A stretch of DNA of 64,000 nucleotides, taken from the IMG/VR virus record IMGVR_UViG_3300030329_005488, positions 5,696 to 69,695 of that record; one strand, written 5' to 3'. The notes below the pieces were generated by a model. It searched no databases, was not told the origin of the DNA, and saw only the letters and a program-made list of their open reading frames with translations. Source of the stretch: a virus. This document shows, piece by piece, positions 1 through 25,801 of this stretch (its first letter is position 1; each line of letters starts with the position of its first letter). The position numbers were made by a program, and so were the translations under genes.

Positions 1-80
1 CAAGATGTGAACTGTGTGGATGCTTCATGAATTTCAAAGCAAGACTGCGCAATAGCACATGTCCTATCAATAAATGGTCG

Positions 81-320
81 TTAAGCAGCGCGAGAGAGAC
101 TTCTATAGACCACTCCAACCATGGAGAATGACACGAATGCTGATAGCAGCATCCACGTCAACTCTTGAGGGGTTAGAGTATTCATACTGAATAATAGAAT
201 GACTAAGGAGCCAAGAGCGAGACTAATGACTTGCACCATTATCATATCAATAATGACAGAATGATTAGTGTCAGACATATCACTGACTGCTATACTGAGT
301 GAGGTGAAAGGACTACGCAT
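81..320 (-). CDS. small membrane protein (2 predicted TM helices)
   Basis: 79 aa with two hydrophobic stretches (VIIDMIMVQVISLALGSLVILLF; WMLLSAFVSFSMVGVVY); start overlaps the stop of the upstream ORF. Confidence 0.7.
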   Translation of the reverse strand: MRSPFTSLSIAVSDMSDTNHSVIIDMIMVQVISLALGSLVILLFSMNTLTPQELTWMLLSAFVSFSMVGVVYRSLSRAA

Positions 321-1003
321 TATGCCACCCTACCCCCTTGTGGTAATCCGACAACTCCACGCATAAGTCCACCGAGGGCACCTCCGGCCTTCTCAAGAGC
401 ACCGGGGTTATCCATTGCTGCAGCGAGAGCACCTTGCATAGCAGTAGATTGCATCATACTGGCAATCTGTTGTTGCTTCATCATGCTTTCTTGGACTGCG
501 GCACTGGCACTATTCTGTAATTGTTGACTGTTCATTGTGACTGAATCTGCTGAAGGTAATGGGGAGACAGCACTGAAATCGAATTTCATACTCCCATCCT
601 CTGCTTCTTTCAAAGAAGAATTACTCAATATATGGTGTACTGAGAGACTTACAATATTAGCGATAAGTCCAGACAGGGCTTGTAAATTACCACCGGGGGT
701 AGAAACAGGCCCCGCCAACCAACGGTCAAATGGTACACTGGTCTGAATAAGAGCAGAGATAAGTTCCATTTCACTGGGTGGGGGAGCATACCCATAGGGT
801 TGCGCACCAAACCCTTGCTGAGTTTGCGCGAATTGAGTTTGTTGAGGACCCATACCCATACCCATCCCCATGCCCATAGGTTGACCCATCCCCATAGGTT
901 GACCCATCCCCATAGGTTGACCCATGCCCATATTATTACTACCAAGGGGTAGAGCACCTGTTGCTTGCTGATTCTGAGAATTGTTTCCGAAAGGCCATAC
1001 CAT
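320..1003 (-). CDS. Gln/Met/Gly-rich low-complexity protein
   Basis: 227 aa ORF with GMGQPM repeats near the N-terminus and an amphipathic C-terminal segment; GAGGAGTGA SD upstream. Confidence 0.75.
   Translation of the reverse strand: MVWPFGNNSQNQQATGALPLGSNNMGMGQPMGMGQPMGMGQPMGMGMGMGMGPQQTQFAQTQQGFGAQPYGYAPPPSEMELISALIQTSVPFDRWLAGPVSTPGGNLQALSGLIANIVSLSVHHILSNSSLKEAEDGSMKFDFSAVSPLPSADSVTMNSQQLQNSASAAVQESMMKQQQIASMMQSTAMQGALAAAMDNPGALEKAGGALGGLMRGVVGLPQGGRVA
849..932 (-). repeat. coding tandem repeat: 3 x 18 nt (cccataggttgacccat[c/g]) plus cccatN hexamers, encoding (GMGQPM)3-(GM)n
   Basis: units read directly at 873-890, 891-908, 909-926; hexamers at 849-872. Confidence 0.9.
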
Positions 1004-1009
1004 ATTCTA

Positions 1010-1996
1010 TCACTCCTCTGTTGGGATGTCGGGCAGTTGTGCCGCTGGTGGTGCCGAAGAGGCCAACAGTGATTGAAGTGTCGGTCCTGAAGCGGCAAGT
1101 TGAGTGGATGTTTGGGGAGGCATCTCATTAGATGTTGAAAGGATGCGTGCATTCGTCCCACTTTGGAATTGTCTCATATCGAAAACTACCATTACAATAT
1201 CATTCTGTCCAGTTATGTGATTCTGCATATGTACAATAGGTAAATTGTCTCTTTTGGCCTGTTTGAAAAACTCCTCATAATGAGCGAGTTGCATAGGAGT
1301 GTTGTCCTTCTTTCTCCCGAATGAGGCAGCAGCAACGACTGGTACAGAGACAGTAGTAACTCCCTTCTTCAGTTTAGCGCGTAATGTGCCTGTGCTGGCC
1401 TCTGTTTCTCGCTCTTCCTCACGTTCCCACTTATTCAATAAATGATACAGATGGAGATGCTCAGGGCAATATGTCCCCCTCATCTTACGTCCACTTGTGA
1501 CATTTTCTCGCGCAATGAACGCTTCACTTTCACCAGTGACTGGATTATGGAAATACATTTCCCATAACGACTTACCTGTTTCTTCATCACGAATATCGTC
1601 ATAGAGATTACCAGCAGCCCGAATCAAGGCATCGACGTCACACCCATCAATACAACAATGTGTCGTGCTGGAATTATAACGAAACTTCCCACCTATAATT
1701 CTCAACGGTGATAAGAATGTCCTCTTAGTGGGCTTCAGCAACCTATAGGCTTGCTTGATATCTTTCCTACGTGCCTTTTTGGGGTCATGGTGTCGAGATG
1801 GGAAGAAATTCACTTTAGGTACTTCGATATGATGCATGGTGGATGCTTCTTCTAATTGGCCCTGAGTGTCAGCCATAGCCTGTAAATCATGAAGAGGTAC
1901 TTGTGACATAGCGGCTATTCTCCGCATATCTGAAGGGGTCTGTTGACCAAGAGGGGTGTGTTGCTGCGAAGGCCAGAATGTCGACATACCTACCAT
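1010..1996 (-). CDS. hypothetical protein, probable Zn-binding (CCIDGC ... CPEH)
   Basis: 328 aa ORF overlapping the GTPase stop; Cys/His clusters. Confidence 0.75.
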   Translation of the reverse strand: MVGMSTFWPSQQHTPLGQQTPSDMRRIAAMSQVPLHDLQAMADTQGQLEEASTMHHIEVPKVNFFPSRHHDPKKARRKDIKQAYRLLKPTKRTFLSPLRIIGGKFRYNSSTTHCCIDGCDVDALIRAAGNLYDDIRDEETGKSLWEMYFHNPVTGESEAFIARENVTSGRKMRGTYCPEHLHLYHLLNKWEREEERETEASTGTLRAKLKKGVTTVSVPVVAAASFGRKKDNTPMQLAHYEEFFKQAKRDNLPIVHMQNHITGQNDIVMVVFDMRQFQSGTNARILSTSNEMPPQTSTQLAASGPTLQSLLASSAPPAAQLPDIPTEE

Positions 1997-2715
1997 TTCA
2001 ACATCTCCATCAATGATTTTTCAACATTCCATCCTATTTTAGTAGCCATCATATTCACACGACAGGGTATCCCCGCTTTCTGGAGCCTGACCATCGCAGG
2101 ACGATGGGCGTTAAATATGTGATGTTCTCGTAAACGCTGAGACTGCCATAACAAATTTGCTTTATCATCCCACCAAACATCTGCTTTGTTAGCGATGACC
2201 CATATCTGCTTGGGCGCGTATCTCTTCCCTCGCAAGCGAGAGGCGATACTTCGATATGCCCATCTTCTCTCAATAACGGCATCAGTGAGGAATTCCAAAC
2301 CACCGACGACATCCACATACCCTTTATTCTCCTTACCTAACGCCCTATCATCAGTTAAGAAGATGACAATCTCCACTCTTCTTTCCACCATGTCGTTGAG
2401 CCATAAGTTCCAGAAACGCTGCTGTCCCCCCAAATCGGTAGAGTGGACCACTCTGCGCTCATTTTCCCAGCGGACACGTTTTCTGGATGCACGTGGTAAT
2501 ACATGACCGTGCCCGATGAGTCTCTTGGGATGGAGGGTCCTGTCTTCGACATCTTCCATCTCACCCGGTGTTGTCATGAATCGGTCCAGTGTTGTTTTCC
2601 CCACCATTGTAGGGCCATACACTCCTACTCTGCGGGGTTTGAGAAAATGATAGAGTTCCCGACCATACATCAGAGCCCCCATCATAATGGAGCCACCCAT
2701 TGTCACGGCTGTCAT
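1990..2715 (-). CDS. small Ras-superfamily (Arf/Sar-like) GTPase
   Basis: G1 GPTMVGKT, G2 Thr (DRTL), G3 DLGGQ followed by Arf-like RFWNLW, G4 NKAD, G5-like MATK..G.NV; hydrophobic/amphipathic N-terminal extension. Confidence 0.85.
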   Translation of the reverse strand: MTAVTMGGSIMMGALMYGRELYHFLKPRRVGVYGPTMVGKTTLDRFMTTPGEMEDVEDRTLHPKRLIGHGHVLPRASRKRVRWENERRVVHSTDLGGQQRFWNLWLNDMVERRVEIVIFLTDDRALGKENKGYVDVVGGLEFLTDAVIERRWAYRSIASRLRGKRYAPKQIWVIANKADVWWDDKANLLWQSQRLREHHIFNAHRPAMVRLQKAGIPCRVNMMATKIGWNVEKSLMEMLKW

Positions 2716-2961
2716 TCACAGGCCCACCCATCCAGCAATCTTGTCCTTCCACCAGATAACGAAATTATCCCATACACTGTAATCCATCCTCACTTCGATA
2801 TATGATGTCAGTAAAACGGCGATTACCACAGCGATTATGGTGCGAATCCAAGAAAAGCCTCGATAATAGTATTCATCTAATTTATTCTGAGTATGTAAAG
2901 CCCGCAATGTCGACTCGGTAGCATCATCTCCCGGGGTTTTGAATAACCAGCCCACATTCAT
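2716..2961 (-). CDS. small single-TM membrane protein
   Basis: 81 aa with hydrophobic segment WIRTIIAVVIAVLLTSYI; abuts neighbours on both sides. Confidence 0.75.
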   Translation of the reverse strand: MNVGWLFKTPGDDATESTLRALHTQNKLDEYYYRGFSWIRTIIAVVIAVLLTSYIEVRMDYSVWDNFVIWWKDKIAGWVGL

Positions 2962-3485
2962 TCCTCGTCTTTGACGAATCTCCCATCAGGCCCTCTCTTC
3001 TTTGTTGCCCCAAGGTCAAGAGACTCCTTTTTCGAGGCAGAGTGTTGAGGTATCTCCATTGCCGCTTTCGCTCTGCGCACCATCTCTTCTTGAAGAGCCA
3101 TGTATTGCACGACTTCAGGGTCGTCTTCTAACATTTTCAGTTGTTGCTCAAATTCAATCTGCTGCCTGCGCATCTCCATTTCCATCTGCTTCTGACTAAA
3201 TTGCATCTGTTGATGTTGCATTTGCTCTTTCTGGTCTCTTTGCATACGCGCAATCTTAGCATTTGATTCCAATGATTCTTGAGCAAGCAACTTGTAGAAG
3301 AAAAAGCCCATCCCTTGTAATGTGAATGTGGCCATTCCATAAGTCAATGCGTTCGTGTAAACCGAGTCTTCTTTGAGCCATAAGTCTGCATCAAACACTG
3401 CTATGACTGCACCTACCCATATCGCTACGAATGAGATAAGTCCCACTGTTTGTATGACATCTGCCCCTTCTCTCCTTTGTGACAT
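2958..3485 (-). CDS. membrane protein, 2 TM helices plus Gln/Glu-rich coiled coil
   Basis: likely start ATG at 3485 after GGAGGT SD (ORF track starts at 3533); two TM segments then QKEQMQHQQMQFSQKQMEMEMRRQQ. Confidence 0.75.
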   Translation of the reverse strand: MSQRREGADVIQTVGLISFVAIWVGAVIAVFDADLWLKEDSVYTNALTYGMATFTLQGMGFFFYKLLAQESLESNAKIARMQRDQKEQMQHQQMQFSQKQMEMEMRRQQIEFEQQLKMLEDDPEVVQYMALQEEMVRRAKAAMEIPQHSASKKESLDLGATKKRGPDGRFVKDEE

Positions 3486-3544
3486 CGTACCTCCGAGAGC
3501 AAGACACTTCATCAACCCTGCGGCGTTGACCAAGTTATTGAGTT

Positions 3545-3595
3545 TCTTATATTATTGTAATAGAATAATATTAATTTATTTTATCATAATAATGA
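3545..3595. repeat. AT-rich element, copy 1 (related copy at 9995-10046)
   Basis: shares tctt..., atagaataata.taa and ataataatga with the second copy. Confidence 0.5.
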
Positions 3596-6500
3596 GAGAG
3601 ACTTGAGAATATTACCTGCTTCCAATATACTCCATGCTATATCGAATGGAGACATCGCTAACTTATTCTGCCAAGCATCCGTCGCCATTTGCTCATCCCA
3701 GTGAGGGTGATGATGTTGAATGAGTTCTCTGACAGCATCTATGTTAATATCAGCCCACTCATTATCATGGATATGCTCCCATAGAGCATTGGGTGTGTAA
3801 AGCGCTTGCTCATTTATCATATCTACCATATGTGACTTGTGATTAATCCTTGACGCCATGCTATCTAATCCCTGAATATTTATTCCACTCTCAGGGTCTT
3901 TACTATCAACCATAGGGGGCAAACTACCTCCAAATTCATGCGCTTCGAGATATTCACCCGCCTGCTCAGGAGTCATTTCCACTGGTTCCCTGTTGAGCGA
4001 CACTTTGCTATTCTTACCCGCCTCTTCTACCATCGAGTGACCGGGATTAGACTGTGAGGATATACCAAATGAAGGGTGGAAGAAACTCACCGGTCCCTCC
4101 ATTCTTTCATCCCCTGTGTCCTCATCTGTGTATGTAGTAGACACGCGTGATAATAACCATGTTGATGGGTCATCAGGGTCAAACCCATAGTCTTCACCAC
4201 CAAGTGCGATGTTTTCTAAACGCGCACTGATATCATTTTGAGCATTATATATTTCCTCACCCTTTCTGTATTTATCACGGTTTATACCTTGAGGTTCATG
4301 ACCGAATCCCCAACCATCTTGTTTTCTATGTTGATAGATACTTCTCTCATCATTACCTTTACCCTTCGTATCTATTTTACCGTAATCAGCCATCCCTTTA
4401 ATTTCATAAGGGGTCATATTGTTGATGAGAGGGAGTATAACACCTCTGTCATGAGCATGGGATGGGTACATACTATGCCCAGTTACTGGCCCTTCACCCA
4501 TCCCATGTGAGGCCCAACTCCCATCAGGGTCACTAAGAGCATGTGTGTGTATATCTTCACGGTATTTACTCCCTCCCTCTGGGGAGGGGAGTTGAGGCCA
4601 GTCGGGAGTAAGGATGGCTGGGTCCATCTGAGAATAAGGTGTGGCTATCCCGTAAGGGTCCATTTCCGGGCCCTCTGTTTCTTGCTGAACAGGCTGTTGA
4701 GTAGGTTGCCCTGACAATTCATCAAGTCGGTCACCAAGAGTAGGTTGTTGAGAGCCCCCTGTTAAGACATCTTCTAATTGAGGGCCTCCACCACTATCTG
4801 TAGGTAATGAAGCCCTCGCCTGTTCAAATTGACGTGCTGGGTCAACATATGCCGGGGGCTTGAGAGGTTCTCCAGCCAGCCTTTGTAATCTTGCTTGGGT
4901 CATCAAATTAGATGACATTGAAGGTGATACAGAGAGACTTTGTAACAAACTACCAAGTCGGTCGCTCTCATCTGGTAATGGGTGTTTCACCTGTTTCAAT
5001 GGGGCTTCTTCTGGGTCAACCACAGGCGCATGATGCCCTCCCCCGTCACAAGTAGGGCATACACCTAATCCTGCACAATGTAGACACTCATATCTCATGC
5101 CGGGAATATCACCCAATCTTGCATCCGCCGCGTCATCTTCAGTGAATTCTCCTTCACCTATTGCACTACGAGCGAATGCAACACGCCCGTCTGCCCCTTC
5201 CCCATGGTCCCGAGAACCATACACATTAGTCATACCAAGCACTCTTTGTGCCCTCGACATAGGAGATTCAGCACCTACGTCTTCCCCTTCGGGGGAATCC
5301 CCGTGGACATCATGATACATTGCTTTCGAAACGTGACCAAGACCTGCACATTCAGGACACGCTGTCGGCCCACCAGTCACATTGTATTGGTCCCCATGAC
5401 CATGTATCCCTTGCTGGGCCTCACGTCGCGCTTGCCAAGTTTCAGGAGCGTGTTTCCTTAAATCATATTCTTCCTCTATAGATATGAGTAAATCTCTCAG
5501 TTTTTTACCAGACTGACCACTGAACAACGACCCGTTTTTACTTTTAGGATGAGTTACACTGTACACTTTACGCCCGTAAGGGTCTGAATTCATGTAACCG
5601 GTAATAATACGGAATATATTAGCGCAGAATTCCTTTTTATCATCGGCTCTTCCTTTGTATTGGTCGAAAGTACCTTGTAAAGGTAAGTCGATAAGGTCAC
5701 CACTCAAACCGTCCCTATATCTCTCCATATCATCACTACCGCCGAATCGAGTGTTCAGCATGTGACCGATTGCAGTCTGTATAGGGAAATGCTGATTGGG
5801 CCAAATGAACCCACCACCTTCTACTGCAGGATTCCTTAAATCGATAGAGTTACGCTCCTCTAAATTATCAATCTCCCTATCAATCATCCTGAGTAGTTTG
5901 TCACCCGATAATTTCTGGTCGGGGTTATCACGGTCCCTCCCCAGAAGAAAATGTGCAGCGTCTTGCCCTGCCTCGAACCGTGCACTATCTTCTTTGGCGG
6001 TTTTGGCCTTGATAGGAGCAGTGAGTGCTTCCTTGATTGCATATAAGTCATTGATTTTTTGGAGGCCCTCATTATTTTCGCGCACATGCCCCCTCGACTG
6101 GGCTGCTATTTTATGATTAGACGCCTCAATCCCTACAGGTAATCTACATACAGGCCTTACCAGCCCTGCATATCTCATGCCTCCTTCTTTCATGGCTTCA
6201 GCGACGCGTTGCACCTTCCCGTCTCTTTCACTGTCCGCAGATTCTATTTCAGAGTTAATCTCACTTCGATGAAGGTCATGTTCAGCAAGGTCTTCTACTA
6301 ATTCCATTATCTCCCTGTCTGGATTTTCTTGGTCTTCAAATCGTTGCCGTGCCTCCTCCAAAACCGCATGCATGTCTGCACCTGTAGGGCAGTAGCGCTT
6401 TGGAGATTTACCTTCTCCCGGCATCAACATGTCACGTATGGTATGCAGTACTTCTGGTCCGCGCATGCCTGTTGATACCATATGAGTACATGTCGGGCAC

Positions 6501-8347
6501 GGCATATCTAATGGGTCATCCATGAGTTCAGGAGTCGAAGCAGGCTTCTTCTCACTAACATCTTCCTCTACCCCTTCATCTTCTCGCTCCGCAAGGAATG
6601 GTGATTCGGGTTCTTCAGGCTCACCTGAGACTATATCTCTTATTTGGGGGTTAGCAGCAAAGAATTCATCTCTGACTGTGCTGAGTATATCTAATCGCGC
6701 TATCTCATTCTCCCTATGTCCCTTCAAGGTCTTTATCTCTTTTCTGTATCTTTCGATATTCCTATCAATAACACCTTCACGCTTGGGGGCTTTACCCTCT
6801 TTCTTTTGCTCAAGATTGAATTGTAATAGCCTCTCTTTCTCTTGAATGTCACTTTCGAAACCTGCTATTCTACCTTCCTGTCTTCCTACCCTGTTGTTAA
6901 CTATTGAGCCTTGACGTATCAGATATTCAATCTGTCTTTGTTCATCAGTGAAGCCATCATCGACTGGTACTGTTCTCCGAGCACCTGCATTAGGTTGCTC
7001 AATAGCATTCTTAGTCGCTTGAGCGCCACCATGGTAAACATTCTTTACGAAATTCTTGAAGTCGTCGTCACCCATATTGAGACTTCTGGAGTCATCTGTA
7101 GGGTGACGATGAGCGTTTTCATGATGACCATTCTTACACCCGGGACATTCTTGATATTCACCATCGTCGGACTCACGCCACTCCCCGCTTCTATGAGAAT
7201 TATCTTCTCTCATTTCTGCCATTCGCCTTACTGCTTTCGATTGGTCAATGTGCTCTCTCACTGCTTTACCAAGTGATTGTAAAGCGGCAGGGTTTGTACC
7301 ATCGTACAATACTTGGGGAGAAACCAAATTGACAATCTTCTCTAATTGCTCTGGCTCTATATCGAGTTTTCTTGATATGTTATCGAATGCTGGAAGAATT
7401 GCGCTCTTGAAATCCCCATACAGTTTCGTGAGATTATATATCGCATTCCCCTGAAGAGTAGGTGCTATCACTTCCCAATCTTCGTCTGACAACTTAGCCT
7501 TCTCTTCATTTATTTGCTCCTCAGACATATTGTCGAATTCCTCTACCCCCAGTTTTTCTCTAAGCACATCACGTAATCTTTCTGCAATGACATTGTCTCT
7601 TTCAGGCCCAGCCTCTTCAGGTCGCTCTCTCCCTATCATGTAATGTTCTAAGTCTGGCATGTCCCCACCGACCACTTTCTTCAAATCTCTCAAGGCTCTA
7701 TATTGGTGCATGAAGGCCTTCCCGCTTTCACTACCTTCTATTGCACGACCTGACTCATCAGGTCGTTGTACCAGATTACCTTCTATGTCGCTATTGAATA
7801 ACTGATGTTGTAAATGGAGAAAATTTTTCACTTGGGGGGTGCCTAAGAAAGCCAATGCGCCTTTCAATCGTGTCACTGCAGTTGGACCATCAGCGTGGGC
7901 AGAGCCATCGATAGCGTGACCTAATTCATTAGTAGTGTTTTGCTTTTGTCTATCATCACGCAATTTGTCAGTGACTCTCTTTCTCTTATCTTGCAGCGTT
8001 TCCTCATCTTCTTCCCTTTCCGGGCCAAACATTTCTTCCGCCCATTTTCCCCAATCCCCCCTCCGGGTTATCTGTGGGGGGTTTGTGTAGACAGGCATCT
8101 CTGCTGCAACTCTACGTCGCGCGCGAGTCAGCAAATCTCGTTGATTGTTTTTCGTCAATTTTTCGAATTTTTCCTTCCCACCGGCTGCTTCTATTGCGCG
8201 CTCTTTAATGGCGCCTTCGTCATCCAAAACGGCCAACAGATGCTGAAATCTATCTTCGTGTCTCTCCATCCAATCTTTACTTTCCAACCTCTCAGGGTCA
8301 GGACTGGGCGCCTTCAGGAAAATACCCATAACGTCCCGTAGGTCCAC
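3584..8347 (-). CDS. very large acidic protein with CxxC/CxxCxGxG Zn-finger motifs and coiled coils (possible virion/internal protein)
   Basis: 1587 aa ORF; CPGCKNG, CPTC, CPECAGLG, CLHCAGLG, CPTCDGGG; C-terminal SPFDIAWSIL motif. Confidence 0.8.
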   Translation of the reverse strand: MDLRDVMGIFLKAPSPDPERLESKDWMERHEDRFQHLLAVLDDEGAIKERAIEAAGGKEKFEKLTKNNQRDLLTRARRRVAAEMPVYTNPPQITRRGDWGKWAEEMFGPEREEDEETLQDKRKRVTDKLRDDRQKQNTTNELGHAIDGSAHADGPTAVTRLKGALAFLGTPQVKNFLHLQHQLFNSDIEGNLVQRPDESGRAIEGSESGKAFMHQYRALRDLKKVVGGDMPDLEHYMIGRERPEEAGPERDNVIAERLRDVLREKLGVEEFDNMSEEQINEEKAKLSDEDWEVIAPTLQGNAIYNLTKLYGDFKSAILPAFDNISRKLDIEPEQLEKIVNLVSPQVLYDGTNPAALQSLGKAVREHIDQSKAVRRMAEMREDNSHRSGEWRESDDGEYQECPGCKNGHHENAHRHPTDDSRSLNMGDDDFKNFVKNVYHGGAQATKNAIEQPNAGARRTVPVDDGFTDEQRQIEYLIRQGSIVNNRVGRQEGRIAGFESDIQEKERLLQFNLEQKKEGKAPKREGVIDRNIERYRKEIKTLKGHRENEIARLDILSTVRDEFFAANPQIRDIVSGEPEEPESPFLAEREDEGVEEDVSEKKPASTPELMDDPLDMPCPTCTHMVSTGMRGPEVLHTIRDMLMPGEGKSPKRYCPTGADMHAVLEEARQRFEDQENPDREIMELVEDLAEHDLHRSEINSEIESADSERDGKVQRVAEAMKEGGMRYAGLVRPVCRLPVGIEASNHKIAAQSRGHVRENNEGLQKINDLYAIKEALTAPIKAKTAKEDSARFEAGQDAAHFLLGRDRDNPDQKLSGDKLLRMIDREIDNLEERNSIDLRNPAVEGGGFIWPNQHFPIQTAIGHMLNTRFGGSDDMERYRDGLSGDLIDLPLQGTFDQYKGRADDKKEFCANIFRIITGYMNSDPYGRKVYSVTHPKSKNGSLFSGQSGKKLRDLLISIEEEYDLRKHAPETWQARREAQQGIHGHGDQYNVTGGPTACPECAGLGHVSKAMYHDVHGDSPEGEDVGAESPMSRAQRVLGMTNVYGSRDHGEGADGRVAFARSAIGEGEFTEDDAADARLGDIPGMRYECLHCAGLGVCPTCDGGGHHAPVVDPEEAPLKQVKHPLPDESDRLGSLLQSLSVSPSMSSNLMTQARLQRLAGEPLKPPAYVDPARQFEQARASLPTDSGGGPQLEDVLTGGSQQPTLGDRLDELSGQPTQQPVQQETEGPEMDPYGIATPYSQMDPAILTPDWPQLPSPEGGSKYREDIHTHALSDPDGSWASHGMGEGPVTGHSMYPSHAHDRGVILPLINNMTPYEIKGMADYGKIDTKGKGNDERSIYQHRKQDGWGFGHEPQGINRDKYRKGEEIYNAQNDISARLENIALGGEDYGFDPDDPSTWLLSRVSTTYTDEDTGDERMEGPVSFFHPSFGISSQSNPGHSMVEEAGKNSKVSLNREPVEMTPEQAGEYLEAHEFGGSLPPMVDSKDPESGINIQGLDSMASRINHKSHMVDMINEQALYTPNALWEHIHDNEWADINIDAVRELIQHHHPHWDEQMATDAWQNKLAMSPFDIAWSILEAGNILKSLSLL

Positions 8348-8416
8348 ACGTGAGGCAAGAAGGGTATAGACATCAATCTTGTGATGTGTGAAAACGATTG
8401 GATGATTGAATATGTG

Positions 8417-14548: not shown

Positions 14549-15103
14549 ATGCAAGAAGTATTACATCACGGACAAAGAGTAGCACTTGGATGCTTGTCCT
14601 GTTACAACGAAGGGCGATTGATATACAAGTGGCTGAACGCTGATGAACTGGAGGAAGCACATGAGTCAGGCAACCTTGCCAAAGCAGTATGCAGCAGAGC
14701 AGATACCATCTACCACAAGAGGGACGAGTGGCACGTACAGGACTACGATGGTGAGATAGGCAGACTGCGCTTAGGTGAGAACCCCGACATCGAGAACCTC
14801 ATTCAGATGATGAGACTCATAGATAATGACCCTGACAAATACGCAGTGGCATGCATAGCAGCCTACGATGCATACGAGTCACCCACTGCTGACGAAGTAG
14901 AAGAGATTGCAGACATGATGCTTTATGTTGGAGACCAATTACTTGAGGACTACTTCATGGAGATGGCTTACGATTGTGGATACATCAAGAACGGAGACTA
15001 TTGGGAATCATACATTGATTGGGAACACTATGCAAGAAACTGCATGTTTGATTACACCGAATACAAATATCGTGGCGACACATACTTGTTGCCACACCAC
15101 TGA
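14549..15103 (+). CDS. ardA: ArdA-family antirestriction protein (DNA mimic)
   Basis: family-typical segments LSCYNEGRLIYKW, EWHVQDYDG, LGEN..I, YIDWEHYARN; acidic, 184 aa. Confidence 0.8.
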   Translation: MQEVLHHGQRVALGCLSCYNEGRLIYKWLNADELEEAHESGNLAKAVCSRADTIYHKRDEWHVQDYDGEIGRLRLGENPDIENLIQMMRLIDNDPDKYAVACIAAYDAYESPTADEVEEIADMMLYVGDQLLEDYFMEMAYDCGYIKNGDYWESYIDWEHYARNCMFDYTEYKYRGDTYLLPHH

Positions 15104-25180: not shown

Positions 25181-25296
25181 GGGAATGTGAATGTGATGGA
25201 AAGCAATATCCATTGAAAGAAACAGGGTACTGGTTATGCATCGAATGTGGTGCACAGTCCCCAATGGAGGGGGAGCATGAACATCTTCGTACTTGA
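25177..25296 (+). CDS. micro Zn-ribbon protein (39 aa)
   Basis: MRECECDG...WLCIECG; GGAGGTGG SD. Confidence 0.5.
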   Translation: MRECECDGKQYPLKETGYWLCIECGAQSPMEGEHEHLRT

Positions 25297-25801
25297 TACC
25301 GACCCTCATGCTGCTGCACGAATGATGTGTGACAAACACATCCCGAAGATGCTTATTGAATCTGCACAGATGATGGCATCAGCACTACGACGTCATGGTT
25401 TAGGTGATGAGCATCTCCCTCTCACAAGGAGAGGTACACCATACAAAGGAGGATTCCCTCATCATCCTTGTACAATATGGGCAGGTGATTCATATGAGAA
25501 CTTCATGTGGCTGTATCAACACGCAGAATCATTAGCACGAGAGTACACCAAAAGATTCGGTAAAAGGCACCGTACACGTCGAGCCATTCGTGAGATGCAT
25601 CAGGCCTTCGACAAGCACTTTACCACTTTTGATTTCCCTGAAGATGGCCTTACACCATTCGCACTGGCTATGCCTGACGAGTACCAGAATCAAGACCCTG
25701 TGAAGGCATACCGTGATTACTACAAGGCTGACAAATCCTACTTCGCTAAGTGGGACAAGGGGACACCTGCTCCCAACTGGTGGCAGGGGGTGACAGCGTG
25801 A
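25277..25801 (+). CDS. pyrimidine-dimer DNA glycosylase (DenV/endonuclease V-related family)
   Basis: MNIFVLDTDP..AA..CDKHIPKMLIESAQM, HHPCTIW, AMPDEY...AYRDYY; start ATG 25277. Confidence 0.75.
   Translation: MNIFVLDTDPHAAARMMCDKHIPKMLIESAQMMASALRRHGLGDEHLPLTRRGTPYKGGFPHHPCTIWAGDSYENFMWLYQHAESLAREYTKRFGKRHRTRRAIREMHQAFDKHFTTFDFPEDGLTPFALAMPDEYQNQDPVKAYRDYYKADKSYFAKWDKGTPAPNWWQGVTA

What the first reader, a model, noticed from the sequence alone, without database searches (positions are those of the whole stretch)
81..3485. Virus-encoded Arf-like small GTPase in a six-gene membrane operon
Seen in sequence: ORF 1990-2715 has all Ras-superfamily G boxes (GPTMVGKT; T; DLGGQ; NKAD; MATK). It also has the DxGGQ-x3-W-x2-W switch II segment resembling Arf/Sar (DVGGQDKIRPLW) and a hydrophobic/amphipathic N-terminal extension. 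It is tightly coupled to a 2-TM coiled-coil protein, a 1-TM protein, a Zn-binding protein, a Q/M/G low-complexity protein and another 2-TM protein. Established: Arf/Sar GTPases insert an N-terminal helix into membranes and recruit coats, and they are best known from eukaryotes and Asgard archaea. Inference: this may be a GTP-switched membrane-remodelling system (egress/lysis, vesicle budding or a viral assembly compartment) in a tailed archaeal virus. No holin or endolysin was recognised in this window.
Basis: partly seen in the sequence, partly recalled or inferred. Interest (0 to 1): 0.88.

Follow-up and report, generated by a model that had tools for sequence, protein, structure and literature searches.

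The report
Arf-like GTPase cassette, marine archaeal virus
A magrovirus-type tailed virus of ocean archaea encodes its own very divergent Arf-like small GTPase, always beside the same two orphan proteins and small membrane proteins at the head of its late genes; this makes it an untested candidate for how such viruses act on, or leave through, the host membrane.

Summary
Six tightly packed minus-strand genes lie at 81-3485. The fourth (1990-2715, 241 aa) is a real Ras-superfamily GTPase: G1, G3, G4 and G5 are all present, and its AlphaFold model matches solved small GTPases at Z 14-15.

No Pfam model reaches it at E<=1, so it is not a curated Arf member. Its nearest solved relatives, by fold and by family profile, are Arf/Arl proteins and Asgard ArfR1. 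It also has an N-terminal hydrophobic helix and the Arf/Sar-type switch II tryptophan.

The family is virus-only in my searches. All six genes recur in the same order in 77-80 of 80 related viral contigs. The GTPase and the Cys/His orphan protein g3 recur in two deeper viral lineages; for the Gln/Met-rich protein g2 homology is shown in only one of them. The membrane proteins are homologous only in part.

The cassette shares strand and gene block with the capsid gene, so it is probably late. Membrane remodelling or egress is an inference; nothing here shows it.

This scan had already reported the same cassette on other DNA (32 notes, at least 31 genomes). No paper in the searched library describes it.

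The parts
3486..3583 (-). AT-rich spacer between the 1587-aa gene and g6. It is a candidate promoter/operator, with GGAGG 4 nt before the g6 ATG.
   Evidence: Sequence read. Aligned upstream regions of relatives share AT-rich, GGTGAATC-like and TTAT-containing blocks and a GGAGG. The promoter function is inferred.
2958..3485 (-). g6: membrane protein of 175 aa from the ATG. It has one clear TM, a second weak hydrophobic stretch, a long Gln/Glu/Met-rich helical region and a basic tail.
   Evidence: Found in 77 of 80 related loci by tblastn. Homologous in lineage B (hhalign 98.2%). Only a positional analogue in lineage C.
2716..2961 (-). g5: 81-aa single-TM protein with a Trp-rich C-terminal segment. 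Its start overlaps the g6 stop (ATGA).
   Evidence: Found in 79 of 80 loci. Weak profile match to lineage B (26.5%) and none to lineage C (2.8%).
1990..2715 (-). g4: divergent Arf-like small GTPase, 241 aa.
2641..2709 (-). N-terminal hydrophobic helix of the GTPase (residues 3-25), with invariant G8 and G13.
   Evidence: AlphaFold2 secondary structure, invariant columns, hydrophobicity across three lineages.
2593..2616 (-). G1 / P-loop, GPTMVGKT.
   Evidence: The GxxxxGK[ST] pattern was found in 164 of 165 family sequences.
2401..2436 (-). G3 and switch II, DLGGQQRFWNLW. Trp lies 11 residues after the Asp.
   Evidence: Residue 98 varies in the family (Q, E, D or H).
2113..2190 (-). G4 (NKAD) followed by a family-specific, highly conserved helical insert (WWD..A..LW...R..EH..F).
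   Evidence: Invariant columns N176-D179, D183, A186, L189, W190, R194, E197, H198 and F201. Extra helix 184-191 in the model.
2038..2049 (-). G5, MATK. Deeper relatives have the classical SAK/SAT form.
1010..1996 (-). g3: 328-aa Cys/His orphan protein, always directly downstream of the GTPase with a 7-nt overlap.
   Evidence: Found in 80 of 80, 4 of 4 and 74 of 80 loci in lineages A, B and C. The model (pLDDT 75) has no fold match.
320..1003 (-). g2: 227-aa Gln/Met/Gly-rich protein with a conserved N-terminal Phe motif, a helical middle part and a Gly-rich C-terminus.
   Evidence: Found in 80 of 80 (A) and 73 of 80 (C) loci by HMM. Weak profile match to the positional gene in B (23.1% against controls of 0.2-0.3%).
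81..320 (-). g1: 79-aa protein with two TM segments. It is holin-shaped by size and topology only.
   Evidence: Found in 78 of 80 loci by tblastn and 80 of 80 by HMM. Not found in lineages B or C.

Best explanation
The cassette is a late-expressed viral module built around a GTP switch of the Arf type.

Shown:
- g4 is a small GTPase with intact nucleotide-binding motifs, an Arf/Arl-like fold and a hydrophobic N-terminal helix.
- It is translationally packed with g3 and g2, and with three small membrane proteins.
- The block lies on the same strand as, and inside, the structural gene block.

Inferred:
- In the GTP state the N-terminal helix holds the GTPase on the cytoplasmic face of the host membrane.
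- There it gathers or controls g6, g5 and g1.
- g3 and/or g2 act as its effector or regulator. The variable residue at the catalytic Gln position suggests that hydrolysis needs help in trans.
- The output is a timed change in the host membrane late in infection, most likely the step that lets virions out.

The host type is reported to lack a murein wall, and no lytic enzyme was recognised here.
For: GTPase identity:
- Motifs are present.
- 385 homologues.
- Fold Z 14.5 in an unbiased scan of 48,161 chains; the top rows are Arl2-complex chain G, LokiRagO, Arf6, SR-beta, G-alpha and Sar1.
- Best Z 15.4, rmsd 2.6 A over 162 residues, to Arl6-GTP. 18 of the top 24 rows name Arf, Arl or ArfR, and the first Rab appears at rank 42 with Z 13.0.
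- Family profile against PDB sequences: GerdArfR1 8OUN E 3.5e-6, Arl8A 1.1e-4, Rab33B 2.7e-3, KRas 0.12. The alignment runs through the N-terminal helix and switch II.
- The nearest non-viral clusters by language-model features carry Arf annotations (scores 0.94-0.95).

N-terminal helix:
- Predicted at residues 3-25.
- Uncharged hydrophobic runs have medians of 17, 11 and 12 residues in three lineages.

Linkage:
- Same order in 77-80 of 80 loci.
- GTPase+g3 in 4 of 4 (B) and 74 of 80 (C) loci; g2 in 73 of 80 (C).
- A 2-TM gene and a ~75-aa hydrophobic gene sit just upstream of the GTPase in the three lineage C loci I read.
- Overlapping or abutting stops and starts.

Late position:
- In a 98%-complete relative the major capsid gene lies 23 kb downstream on the same strand.
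- In a 100%-complete lineage C genome it lies 2 kb upstream on the same strand.

Context: a review states that the egress machinery of tailed archaeal viruses is uncharacterised (passages read, PMC10791045). A cellular small GTPase drives vesicle formation in Haloferax (sections 10 and 12 read, PMC10927574).
Against: - Nothing here shows membrane binding, GTP binding or any lysis phenotype.
- No expression data were obtained.
- The membrane proteins of lineage C are not detectably homologous to g5 and g6 (hhalign 2.8% and 0.2%, no better than controls at 0.2-3.7%), and g1 is confined to lineage A. The invariant core (GTPase, g3, g2) is therefore soluble.
- The N-terminal segment fails a standard TM threshold and has a low hydrophobic moment over its first 18 residues (0.14).
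- A position inside the morphogenesis block fits an assembly role equally well.
- No lytic enzyme, coat, GAP or GEF domain was found in any neighbour.
Confidence: 0.4

Rival explanations
1. Assembly platform. The GTPase and its partners organise head assembly, maturation or DNA packaging at the membrane, or act as an assembly checkpoint. They do not break or remodel the membrane for release.
For: In lineage C the cassette follows the major head protein gene after only two small genes. In lineage A it heads the block that leads to the capsid gene. The invariant core (GTPase, g3, g2) is soluble. g2 is low-complexity and Gln/Met-rich.
Against: No known tailed-virus assembly pathway uses a small GTPase (recalled). 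None of the proteins matches a head, scaffold or packaging family in PHROGs or Pfam. Small TM proteins accompany the GTPase in all three lineages by position.
Confidence: 0.2
2. Host takeover or exclusion. The module changes the host envelope for another purpose: superinfection exclusion, receptor masking, blocking host vesicle formation or division, or building a replication compartment.
For: The module has membrane proteins plus a switch. A cellular GTPase (ArvA) controls vesicle formation in Euryarchaeota. The window carries other host-directed genes, such as an ArdA-like antirestriction protein.
Against: The cassette is co-oriented with structural genes, not with the early/replication block on the other strand. 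It is conserved about as well as PolB (55-74% against 56-71% identity), which is unusual for accessory exclusion genes.
Confidence: 0.15
3. Soluble regulatory GTPase with no membrane role. It might act on translation, the viral chaperonin or nucleic acid, and the TM neighbours are unrelated genes that happen to sit beside it.
For: The GTPase lacks a TM by hydropathy. Weak sub-threshold Pfam hits of relatives include MMR_HSR1 and GTP_EFTU. The TM genes are not homologous across all lineages.
Against: The start/stop overlaps with g5 and g6. A small TM gene lies directly upstream in all three lineages. The hydrophobic N-terminal helix with invariant Gly residues is conserved. The nearest structures are membrane-cycling Arf/Arl proteins.
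Confidence: 0.1

Closest known systems
Arf family small GTPases (Arf, Arl, Sar1), including the Asgard ArfR proteins GerdArfR1 (PDB 8OUN, 8OUM) and HodArfR1 (8OUK, 8OUL)
   Same: Both have the small-GTPase fold, with the highest Z-scores to Arl6, Arl1, Arl2, Arf1, Arf6 and ArfR1. The best sequence-profile hit is GerdArfR1, then Arl8. A helix precedes the G domain, and in the model it superposes from residue 11-14 on the N-terminal helices of the Arl2-complex chain and ARL10B. Switch II has DxGG followed by Trp at +11. As in ArfR and Arl8, there is no myristoylation signal (bioRxiv 10.1101/2024.02.28.582541, passages read).
   Different: It is below Pfam's Arf threshold and about 14-19% identical to solved Arf proteins. 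There are roughly 15 extra residues between the likely G2 Thr60 and strand 2. It carries a conserved Rho-insert-like helix after G4. The catalytic Gln is replaced by Glu, Asp or His in many members. The N-terminal helix is more hydrophobic than amphipathic. It is encoded by tailed viruses linked to Poseidoniales, whereas ArfR is described as almost exclusive to Asgard archaea. No tree was built.
ArvA-ArvB-ArvC (OapABC), the vesicle-forming GTPase operon of Haloferax volcanii and other Euryarchaeota and DPANN (PMC10927574)
   Same: Both are archaeal-world small GTPases with an N-terminal hydrophobic or amphipathic helix. In both, weak Pfam affinities are split between MMR_HSR1 and Arf. Both sit in a fixed operon, here with a Cys/His protein directly downstream and there with a Zn-ribbon protein. 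ArvA has a demonstrated membrane-deforming role.
   Different: None of the six viral proteins hits any Pfam family at threshold, so the ArvB and ArvC families named in the paper (DUF2073, DUF2072) are not among the hits at E<=1. The viral cassette adds three TM proteins and a Gln/Met-rich protein. I could not reach an ArvA sequence, so homology of the GTPases was not tested.
SR-beta and Sar1 (membrane-anchored members of the Arf-related clade)
   Same: Both have a hydrophobic N-terminal anchor followed by an Arf-like G domain. SR-beta scores Z 14.1 and Sar1 Z 13.3. Lineage B has His at the catalytic position, as I recall for Sar1.
   Different: No SRX, longin or coat partner was detected. The context is viral, not the secretory pathway.
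Small GTPases of giant eukaryotic viruses (Rab, Ran, Ras-like; for example the mimivirus Rab, PDB 5XC5)
   Same: These are also virus-encoded Ras-superfamily GTPases. They are the best matches in the viral structure library (E from 8e-6). The mimivirus Rab scores Z 13.0.
   Different: Those are recent captures from eukaryotic hosts with clear family membership. This family has no cellular counterpart in my searches and belongs to a tailed virus of archaea. No prokaryotic virus appears in the 50 rows listed.
Phage holin-endolysin lysis cassettes (functional comparison only)
   Same: Both are compact clusters of small membrane proteins next to the late or structural genes. g1 has the size and two-TM shape of a class II holin (the holin classes are recalled).
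   Different: No muralytic enzyme was recognised in the ORFs scanned. A GTPase and two large soluble orphan proteins are present. There is no sequence match to any holin family.

Membership tests
Ras-superfamily (TRAFAC) small GTPase | G1 P-loop GxxxxGK[ST] | tested here: met
   GPTMVGKT at residues 34-41. The pattern was found in 164 of 165 family sequences.
Ras-superfamily (TRAFAC) small GTPase | G3 DxxG, G4 NKxD and G5 SA-type motif, in order | tested here: met
   DLGGQ, NKAD and MATK in the window. Lineage C has NK[YHF]D and IVSAK; lineage B has AISAT.
Ras-superfamily (TRAFAC) small GTPase | Six-stranded G-domain fold | tested here: met
   AlphaFold2 pLDDT 74, pTM 0.75. Foldseek gave at least 500 PDB matches at E<=1e-3, all small GTPases in the listed rows. 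VIA Z up to 15.4.
Ras-superfamily (TRAFAC) small GTPase | Binds and hydrolyses GTP | not testable with these tools
   This needs biochemistry. The residue at the catalytic Gln position varies: lineage A Q 56, E 21, D 4 of 81; lineage B H 4 of 4; lineage C Q 42, E 38 of 80.
Arf family (Pfam PF00025; Arf, Arl, Sar, ArfR) | Scores above the curated family threshold | tested here: not met
   The window protein has no Pfam family at E<=1. The best Arf score among 10 distant relatives is 16.8 bits against a cut-off of 22.3. PF00025 does not ring in the record in a six-frame search.
Arf family (Pfam PF00025; Arf, Arl, Sar, ArfR) | N-terminal helix ahead of the G domain that mediates membrane binding | tested here: inconclusive
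   The helix is predicted at residues 3-25 and conserved in three lineages. It aligns to the N-terminal helix region of GerdArfR1. It is hydrophobic rather than clearly amphipathic. Membrane binding was not tested.
Arf family (Pfam PF00025; Arf, Arl, Sar, ArfR) | Switch II DxGGQ with conserved Trp 11 residues after the Asp | tested here: met
   The Trp stands at +11 in every common G3/switch II motif listed for lineages A, B and C, and W105 is nearly invariant across the 15 diverse sequences. The Gln itself is not conserved. I recall that this Trp is shared with Sar1 and G-alpha, so it marks the wider clade.
Arf family (Pfam PF00025; Arf, Arl, Sar, ArfR) | Interswitch two-residue register shift coupled to helix release | not testable with these tools
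   This needs GDP- and GTP-state structures. The model resembles the GTP forms.
Arf family (Pfam PF00025; Arf, Arl, Sar, ArfR) | Falls inside the Arf/ArfR clade in a Ras-superfamily tree | not tested
   No reference sequence set could be obtained. Only similarity rankings are available.
ArvABC vesiculation operon | ArvB (DUF2073) and ArvC (DUF2072) encoded next to the GTPase | tested here: not met
   The Pfam scan of all six proteins at E<=1 lists neither family. The family names are from PMC10927574, section 10.
ArvABC vesiculation operon | GTPase orthologous to ArvA (HVO_3014) | not testable with these tools
   No ArvA sequence or structure was reachable.
MglA/MglB-type prokaryotic GTPase module | GTPase closest to MglA, with a Roadblock/LC7 partner alongside | tested here: inconclusive
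   No row naming MglA appears in the 60 best PDB profile hits or the 50-row fold lists. No Roadblock family hit in the neighbours. Absence from capped lists does not exclude it.
Holin-endolysin lysis cassette | Small TM holin next to a wall-degrading enzyme | tested here: not met
   g1 has a holin-like size and two TMs. There is no holin family hit and no lytic enzyme in the 43 ORFs scanned with Pfam.

The most novel reading that the evidence does not exclude
The cassette is the missing egress machine of tailed archaeal viruses. A virus-encoded, Arf-like GTP switch, anchored by its N-terminal helix, times and nucleates small membrane proteins that open or bud the host membrane, with g3 and g2 as a new kind of regulator or effector. 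If so, GTPase-driven membrane remodelling of the Arf type operates in Thermoplasmatota-infecting viruses, outside Asgard archaea and eukaryotes.
Probability: 0.25. Interest if true: 0.85.

Novelty: new variant of a known kind. Interest (0 to 1): 0.62.

Why it matters
Magroviruses are described as among the most abundant ocean viruses, and their hosts are uncultured (PMC5434244, passages read). How any tailed archaeal virus gets out of its cell is called completely uncharacterised (PMC10791045, passages read).

This is a strongly conserved, virus-only GTPase whose closest solved relatives are the membrane-trafficking Arf/Arl/ArfR switches. It is locked to membrane proteins and to two proteins whose models match no solved fold in the searches run. 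That gives a concrete, clonable set of genes with which to test that step.

It also widens the known range of Arf-like proteins beyond eukaryotes and Asgard archaea. This bears only loosely on the origin of Arf, because the family is too divergent to place without a proper tree.

Tried and rejected
- **Single-sequence and narrow-profile searches.** Searches of PDB sequences with the window protein and with the close-family alignment A1 gave nothing significant. Only the broader alignment A2 reached ArfR and Arl8.
- **Foldseek ranking.** Foldseek's E-value order put Rac and Rho first. I attribute this to the helix inserted after G4, and I prefer the Z-score rankings. Rows within 1 Z of each other are ties.
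- **g3.** No PDB sequence hit, best VIA Z 4.3 on short helical pieces, best Foldseek E 2.3, no usable Atlas hit. I could not name its fold, and I reject the small homeodomain-like matches as chance.
- **Complex prediction.** The job with the GTPase, g3 residues 55-290, GTP and Mg gave 'no answer' (score 0.00). This is no evidence either way.
- **RNA runs.** No RNA holder was listed for window 1-8400.
- **INPHARED phage collection.** No match by tblastn.
- **Genome collection.** 38 pattern matches, of which 2 are relatives. Both lie on short contigs (8.8 and 16.4 kb) binned with alphaproteobacterial MAGs, and both carry the whole cassette. I read them as mis-binned viral contigs, not bacterial genes.
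- **Second homologue search.** The search with A2 listed only family members among its best 120 of 475 hits, so any cellular tail stayed out of view.
- **PolB-bearing fragments.** Four records 43-74% complete showed no GTPase (0 of 4). This is uninformative, because by comparison with full-length relatives the cassette lies beyond their ends. One handle (L187) was not held.
- **Neighbouring genes.** The genes downstream of g1 (237, 142, 420, 592 and 450+ aa) and the upstream 1587-aa protein gave no family assignment. The 1587-aa protein matched only 2 of 80 loci, so I left it out of the cassette.
- **Literature.** 'magrovirus' + 'GTPase': 0 papers. 'Poseidoniales' + 'virus' + 'GTPase': 3 papers, none on this by title or abstract start. 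'archaeal virus' + 'small GTPase': 16 papers, none describing it in the listing. 'GTPase' occurs 0 times in the main texts of PMC5434244, PMC11706807 and PMC10160649. Some JGI records already name family members 'GTPase SAR1 family protein'.

Full report
**What is there.** The window's left end carries six minus-strand ORFs:
- g6: 2958-3485 from its ATG
- g5: 2716-2961
- g4: 1990-2715
- g3: 1010-1996
- g2: 320-1003
- g1: 81-320

They are packed with overlaps of 4, 0, 7 and 1 nt and one 6-nt spacer. An AT-rich spacer of about 100 nt separates g6 from the upstream 1587-aa gene. Relatives share blocks in this spacer, so an own promoter is plausible but inferred.

**Which virus.** The record is an IMG/VR virus contig of 69,695 bases, 68% complete. 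It carries family B DNA polymerase, a thermosome subunit, SNF2 and DEAD helicases, an RFC-like ATPase and several nucleases. A thermosome plus an SNF2 helicase is the combination reported for group A magroviruses (PMC5434244, passages read).

**The GTPase is real.**
- The protein has 385 homologues at E<=1e-3 among 692 candidates. None of the 120 listed has a precomputed Pfam domain, and many sit on contigs of about 100 kb.
- An exhaustive scan of 1.84 billion representatives found only 76 clusters.
- The AlphaFold2 model from 27 sequences (pLDDT 74, pTM 0.75) has an N-terminal helix at 3-25, then the canonical strand and helix order. Confidence is low in the switch I region (38-58). There are two extra helices, at 157-165 and 184-191.
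- The conserved columns include family-specific blocks beside the G motifs: TPGEM (49-53), T60/H62, L73-P74, K79-R80, and the insert after G4.

**Which kind of GTPase.**
- Pfam gives nothing at E<=1 for the window protein. Ten distant relatives give only sub-threshold hits, spread over Arf (5 of 10), MMR_HSR1 (6), Roc (4), GTP_EFTU (4), Gtr1_RagA (1) and Ras (1).
- A profile of 15 diverse members hits PDB sequences in this order: 8OUN E 3.5e-6, Arl8A 1.1e-4 and 1.6e-4, two further Arl8-type entries, Arl8B 2.7e-3, Rab33B 2.7e-3, 8OUM 7.3e-3, KRas from 0.12. Interspersed RecA P-loop repeat hits I disregard.
- 8OUN is full-length GerdArfR1-GDP (bioRxiv 10.1101/2024.02.28.582541, passages read).
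- A Foldseek-independent scan of 48,161 chains puts these on top: a tubulin-cofactor complex chain that I recall is Arl2 (Z 14.5), LokiRagO (14.5), Arf6 (14.2, 14.1), SR-beta (14.1), G-alpha (13.5, 13.3) and Sar1 (13.3).
- Re-ranking Foldseek's 1000 best chains gives Arl6-GTP Z 15.4 (rmsd 2.6 A, 162 residues). 18 of the top 24 rows name Arf, Arl or ArfR, and the first Rab appears at rank 42 with Z 13.0.
- Foldseek's own E-values favour Rac and Rho. I attribute this to the insert after G4.
- Language-model features place bacterial clusters with partial Arf annotation next after the viral clusters.

Together these make 'Arf-like' a fair description. The Pfam threshold is not met and no tree was built, so I do not file it as an Arf family member.

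**Details that qualify the picture.**
- The residue at the catalytic Gln position is Q in the window. Across the family it is Q 56, E 21, D 4 of 81 in lineage A; H 4 of 4 in B; and Q 42, E 38 of 80 in C.
- The Trp 11 residues after the G3 Asp is kept in the common motifs of all three lineages.
- The N-terminal segment has uncharged runs with medians of 17, 11 and 12 residues. It fails the TM threshold. That fits a shallow membrane anchor better than a spanning helix, but this is inference.

**The neighbours.**
- In 80 loci kept from 229 viral contigs that encode a relative, tblastn finds g2, g3 and g4 in 80, g5 in 79, g1 in 78 and g6 in 77, always in the same order. The upstream giant protein appears in only 2. 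Several of the misses lie at contig ends.
- Two deeper lineages were reached through distant GTPase relatives: B (4 loci) and C (80 of 140 contigs).
- Iterated HMMs find g3 in 4 of 4 and 74 of 80, g2 in 0 of 4 and 73 of 80, g6 in 4 of 4 and 0 of 80, and g5 and g1 in none.
- Profile-profile comparison supports g6 homology between A and B (98.2%). It is weak for g5 A-B (26.5%) and g2 A-B (23.1% against 0.2-0.3% controls). It shows nothing between A and C for the membrane genes.
- By position, however, the three lineage C loci I read have a two-TM gene and a hydrophobic gene of about 75 aa directly before the GTPase.
- So the invariant core is GTPase-g3-g2, accompanied in each lineage by small membrane proteins that are only partly homologous.

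**g3 and g2.** g3 has invariant C114, C177, H180 and H182. Its fairly confident model has no match in PDB. g2 is low-complexity with a conserved N-terminal Phe. No neighbour hits a GAP, GEF, coat, Roadblock, longin, holin or lytic family.

**Timing and place.** In a 98%-complete lineage A relative the capsid gene lies about 23 kb downstream of the cassette on the same strand. In a 100%-complete lineage C genome it lies about 2 kb upstream on the same strand. In the window the cassette is the second to seventh gene of the leftward block, which starts at the divergent region near 8.4-8.9 kb. This points to late expression. No RNA data could be obtained.

**Distribution.**
- The phage collection gave no match.
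- 185,579 species genomes gave two hits, both short contigs carrying the whole cassette and binned with alphaproteobacteria. I read these as viral contigs.
- The nearest viral structures in BFVD are Rab, Ran and Ras proteins of giant viruses.
- Arf-type GTPases on a mobile-element-like region have been reported for Asgard Atabeyarchaeia (PMC11529989, passages read), but not for tailed viruses.
- Some JGI records label family members 'GTPase SAR1 family protein', so automated annotation has seen the G domain.
- I found no paper on the cassette (main texts). Supplements were closed.

**Mechanism.** I commit, at about 0.4, to a late, membrane-acting GTP switch whose most likely output is virion release. 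The steps shown and inferred are listed under Best explanation. The main rival is a role in assembly at the membrane (0.2). Comparison with ArvABC, the Haloferax vesicle-forming GTPase operon (PMC10927574, sections 10 and 12 read), is attractive. It stays untested for the GTPase and negative for the partner families.

**Earlier findings.** The scan's index holds 32 earlier notes on this cassette in at least 31 other genomes. They supplied the ArfR and ArvABC leads. I re-derived the ArfR similarity, the synteny and the position in the structural block here. One earlier report judged the protein no closer to Arf than to Ras-like GTPases. My Z-score and profile rankings lean towards Arf, by margins of about 2 Z units and two to four orders of magnitude in E-value.

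Noticed in passing
window 3584-8347 (-): A 1587-aa protein sits directly upstream of the cassette. A similarly sized ORF holds the same place in a relative (L004, 1673-1690 aa), but tblastn finds it in only 2 of 80 loci, so it diverges very fast. It has CxxC-rich stretches and only weak family hits.
   Followed up: partly
window 14549-15103 (+): ArdA-type antirestriction protein (PF07275, E 9.6e-14) in an archaeal virus genome.
   Followed up: no
window 25247-25801 (+): Pyrimidine-dimer DNA glycosylase domain (PF03013, E 7.8e-9). This is a UV-repair gene in a surface-ocean virus.
   Followed up: no
window 1-131 (+), complete in L081 5482-5826: Cys-rich 114-aa protein on the opposite strand, convergent with g1 and overlapping its end. 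It matches DUF6171 (E 4.5e-8) and phrog_13558 (E 1.4e-15).
   Followed up: no
L166 and L167 (genome collection): Two contigs (8.8 and 16.4 kb) binned into Maricaulis and Parvibaculum MAGs carry the whole GTPase cassette in order. They are probably viral contigs mis-binned into bacterial genomes.
   Followed up: partly
L082 3250-4785: In lineage B a 511-aa chaperonin-like gene lies just upstream of the cassette (judged from the N-terminal sequence seen). The cassette's neighbours therefore differ between lineages while its core stays fixed.
   Followed up: no
window 3486-3583 and the matching spacers of L001-L080: Upstream of g6 many relatives share an AT-rich run, a GGTGAATC-like block, a TTAT-containing block and a GGAGG before the ATG. 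This could be a late promoter or operator. I did not compare it with other late genes.
   Followed up: partly
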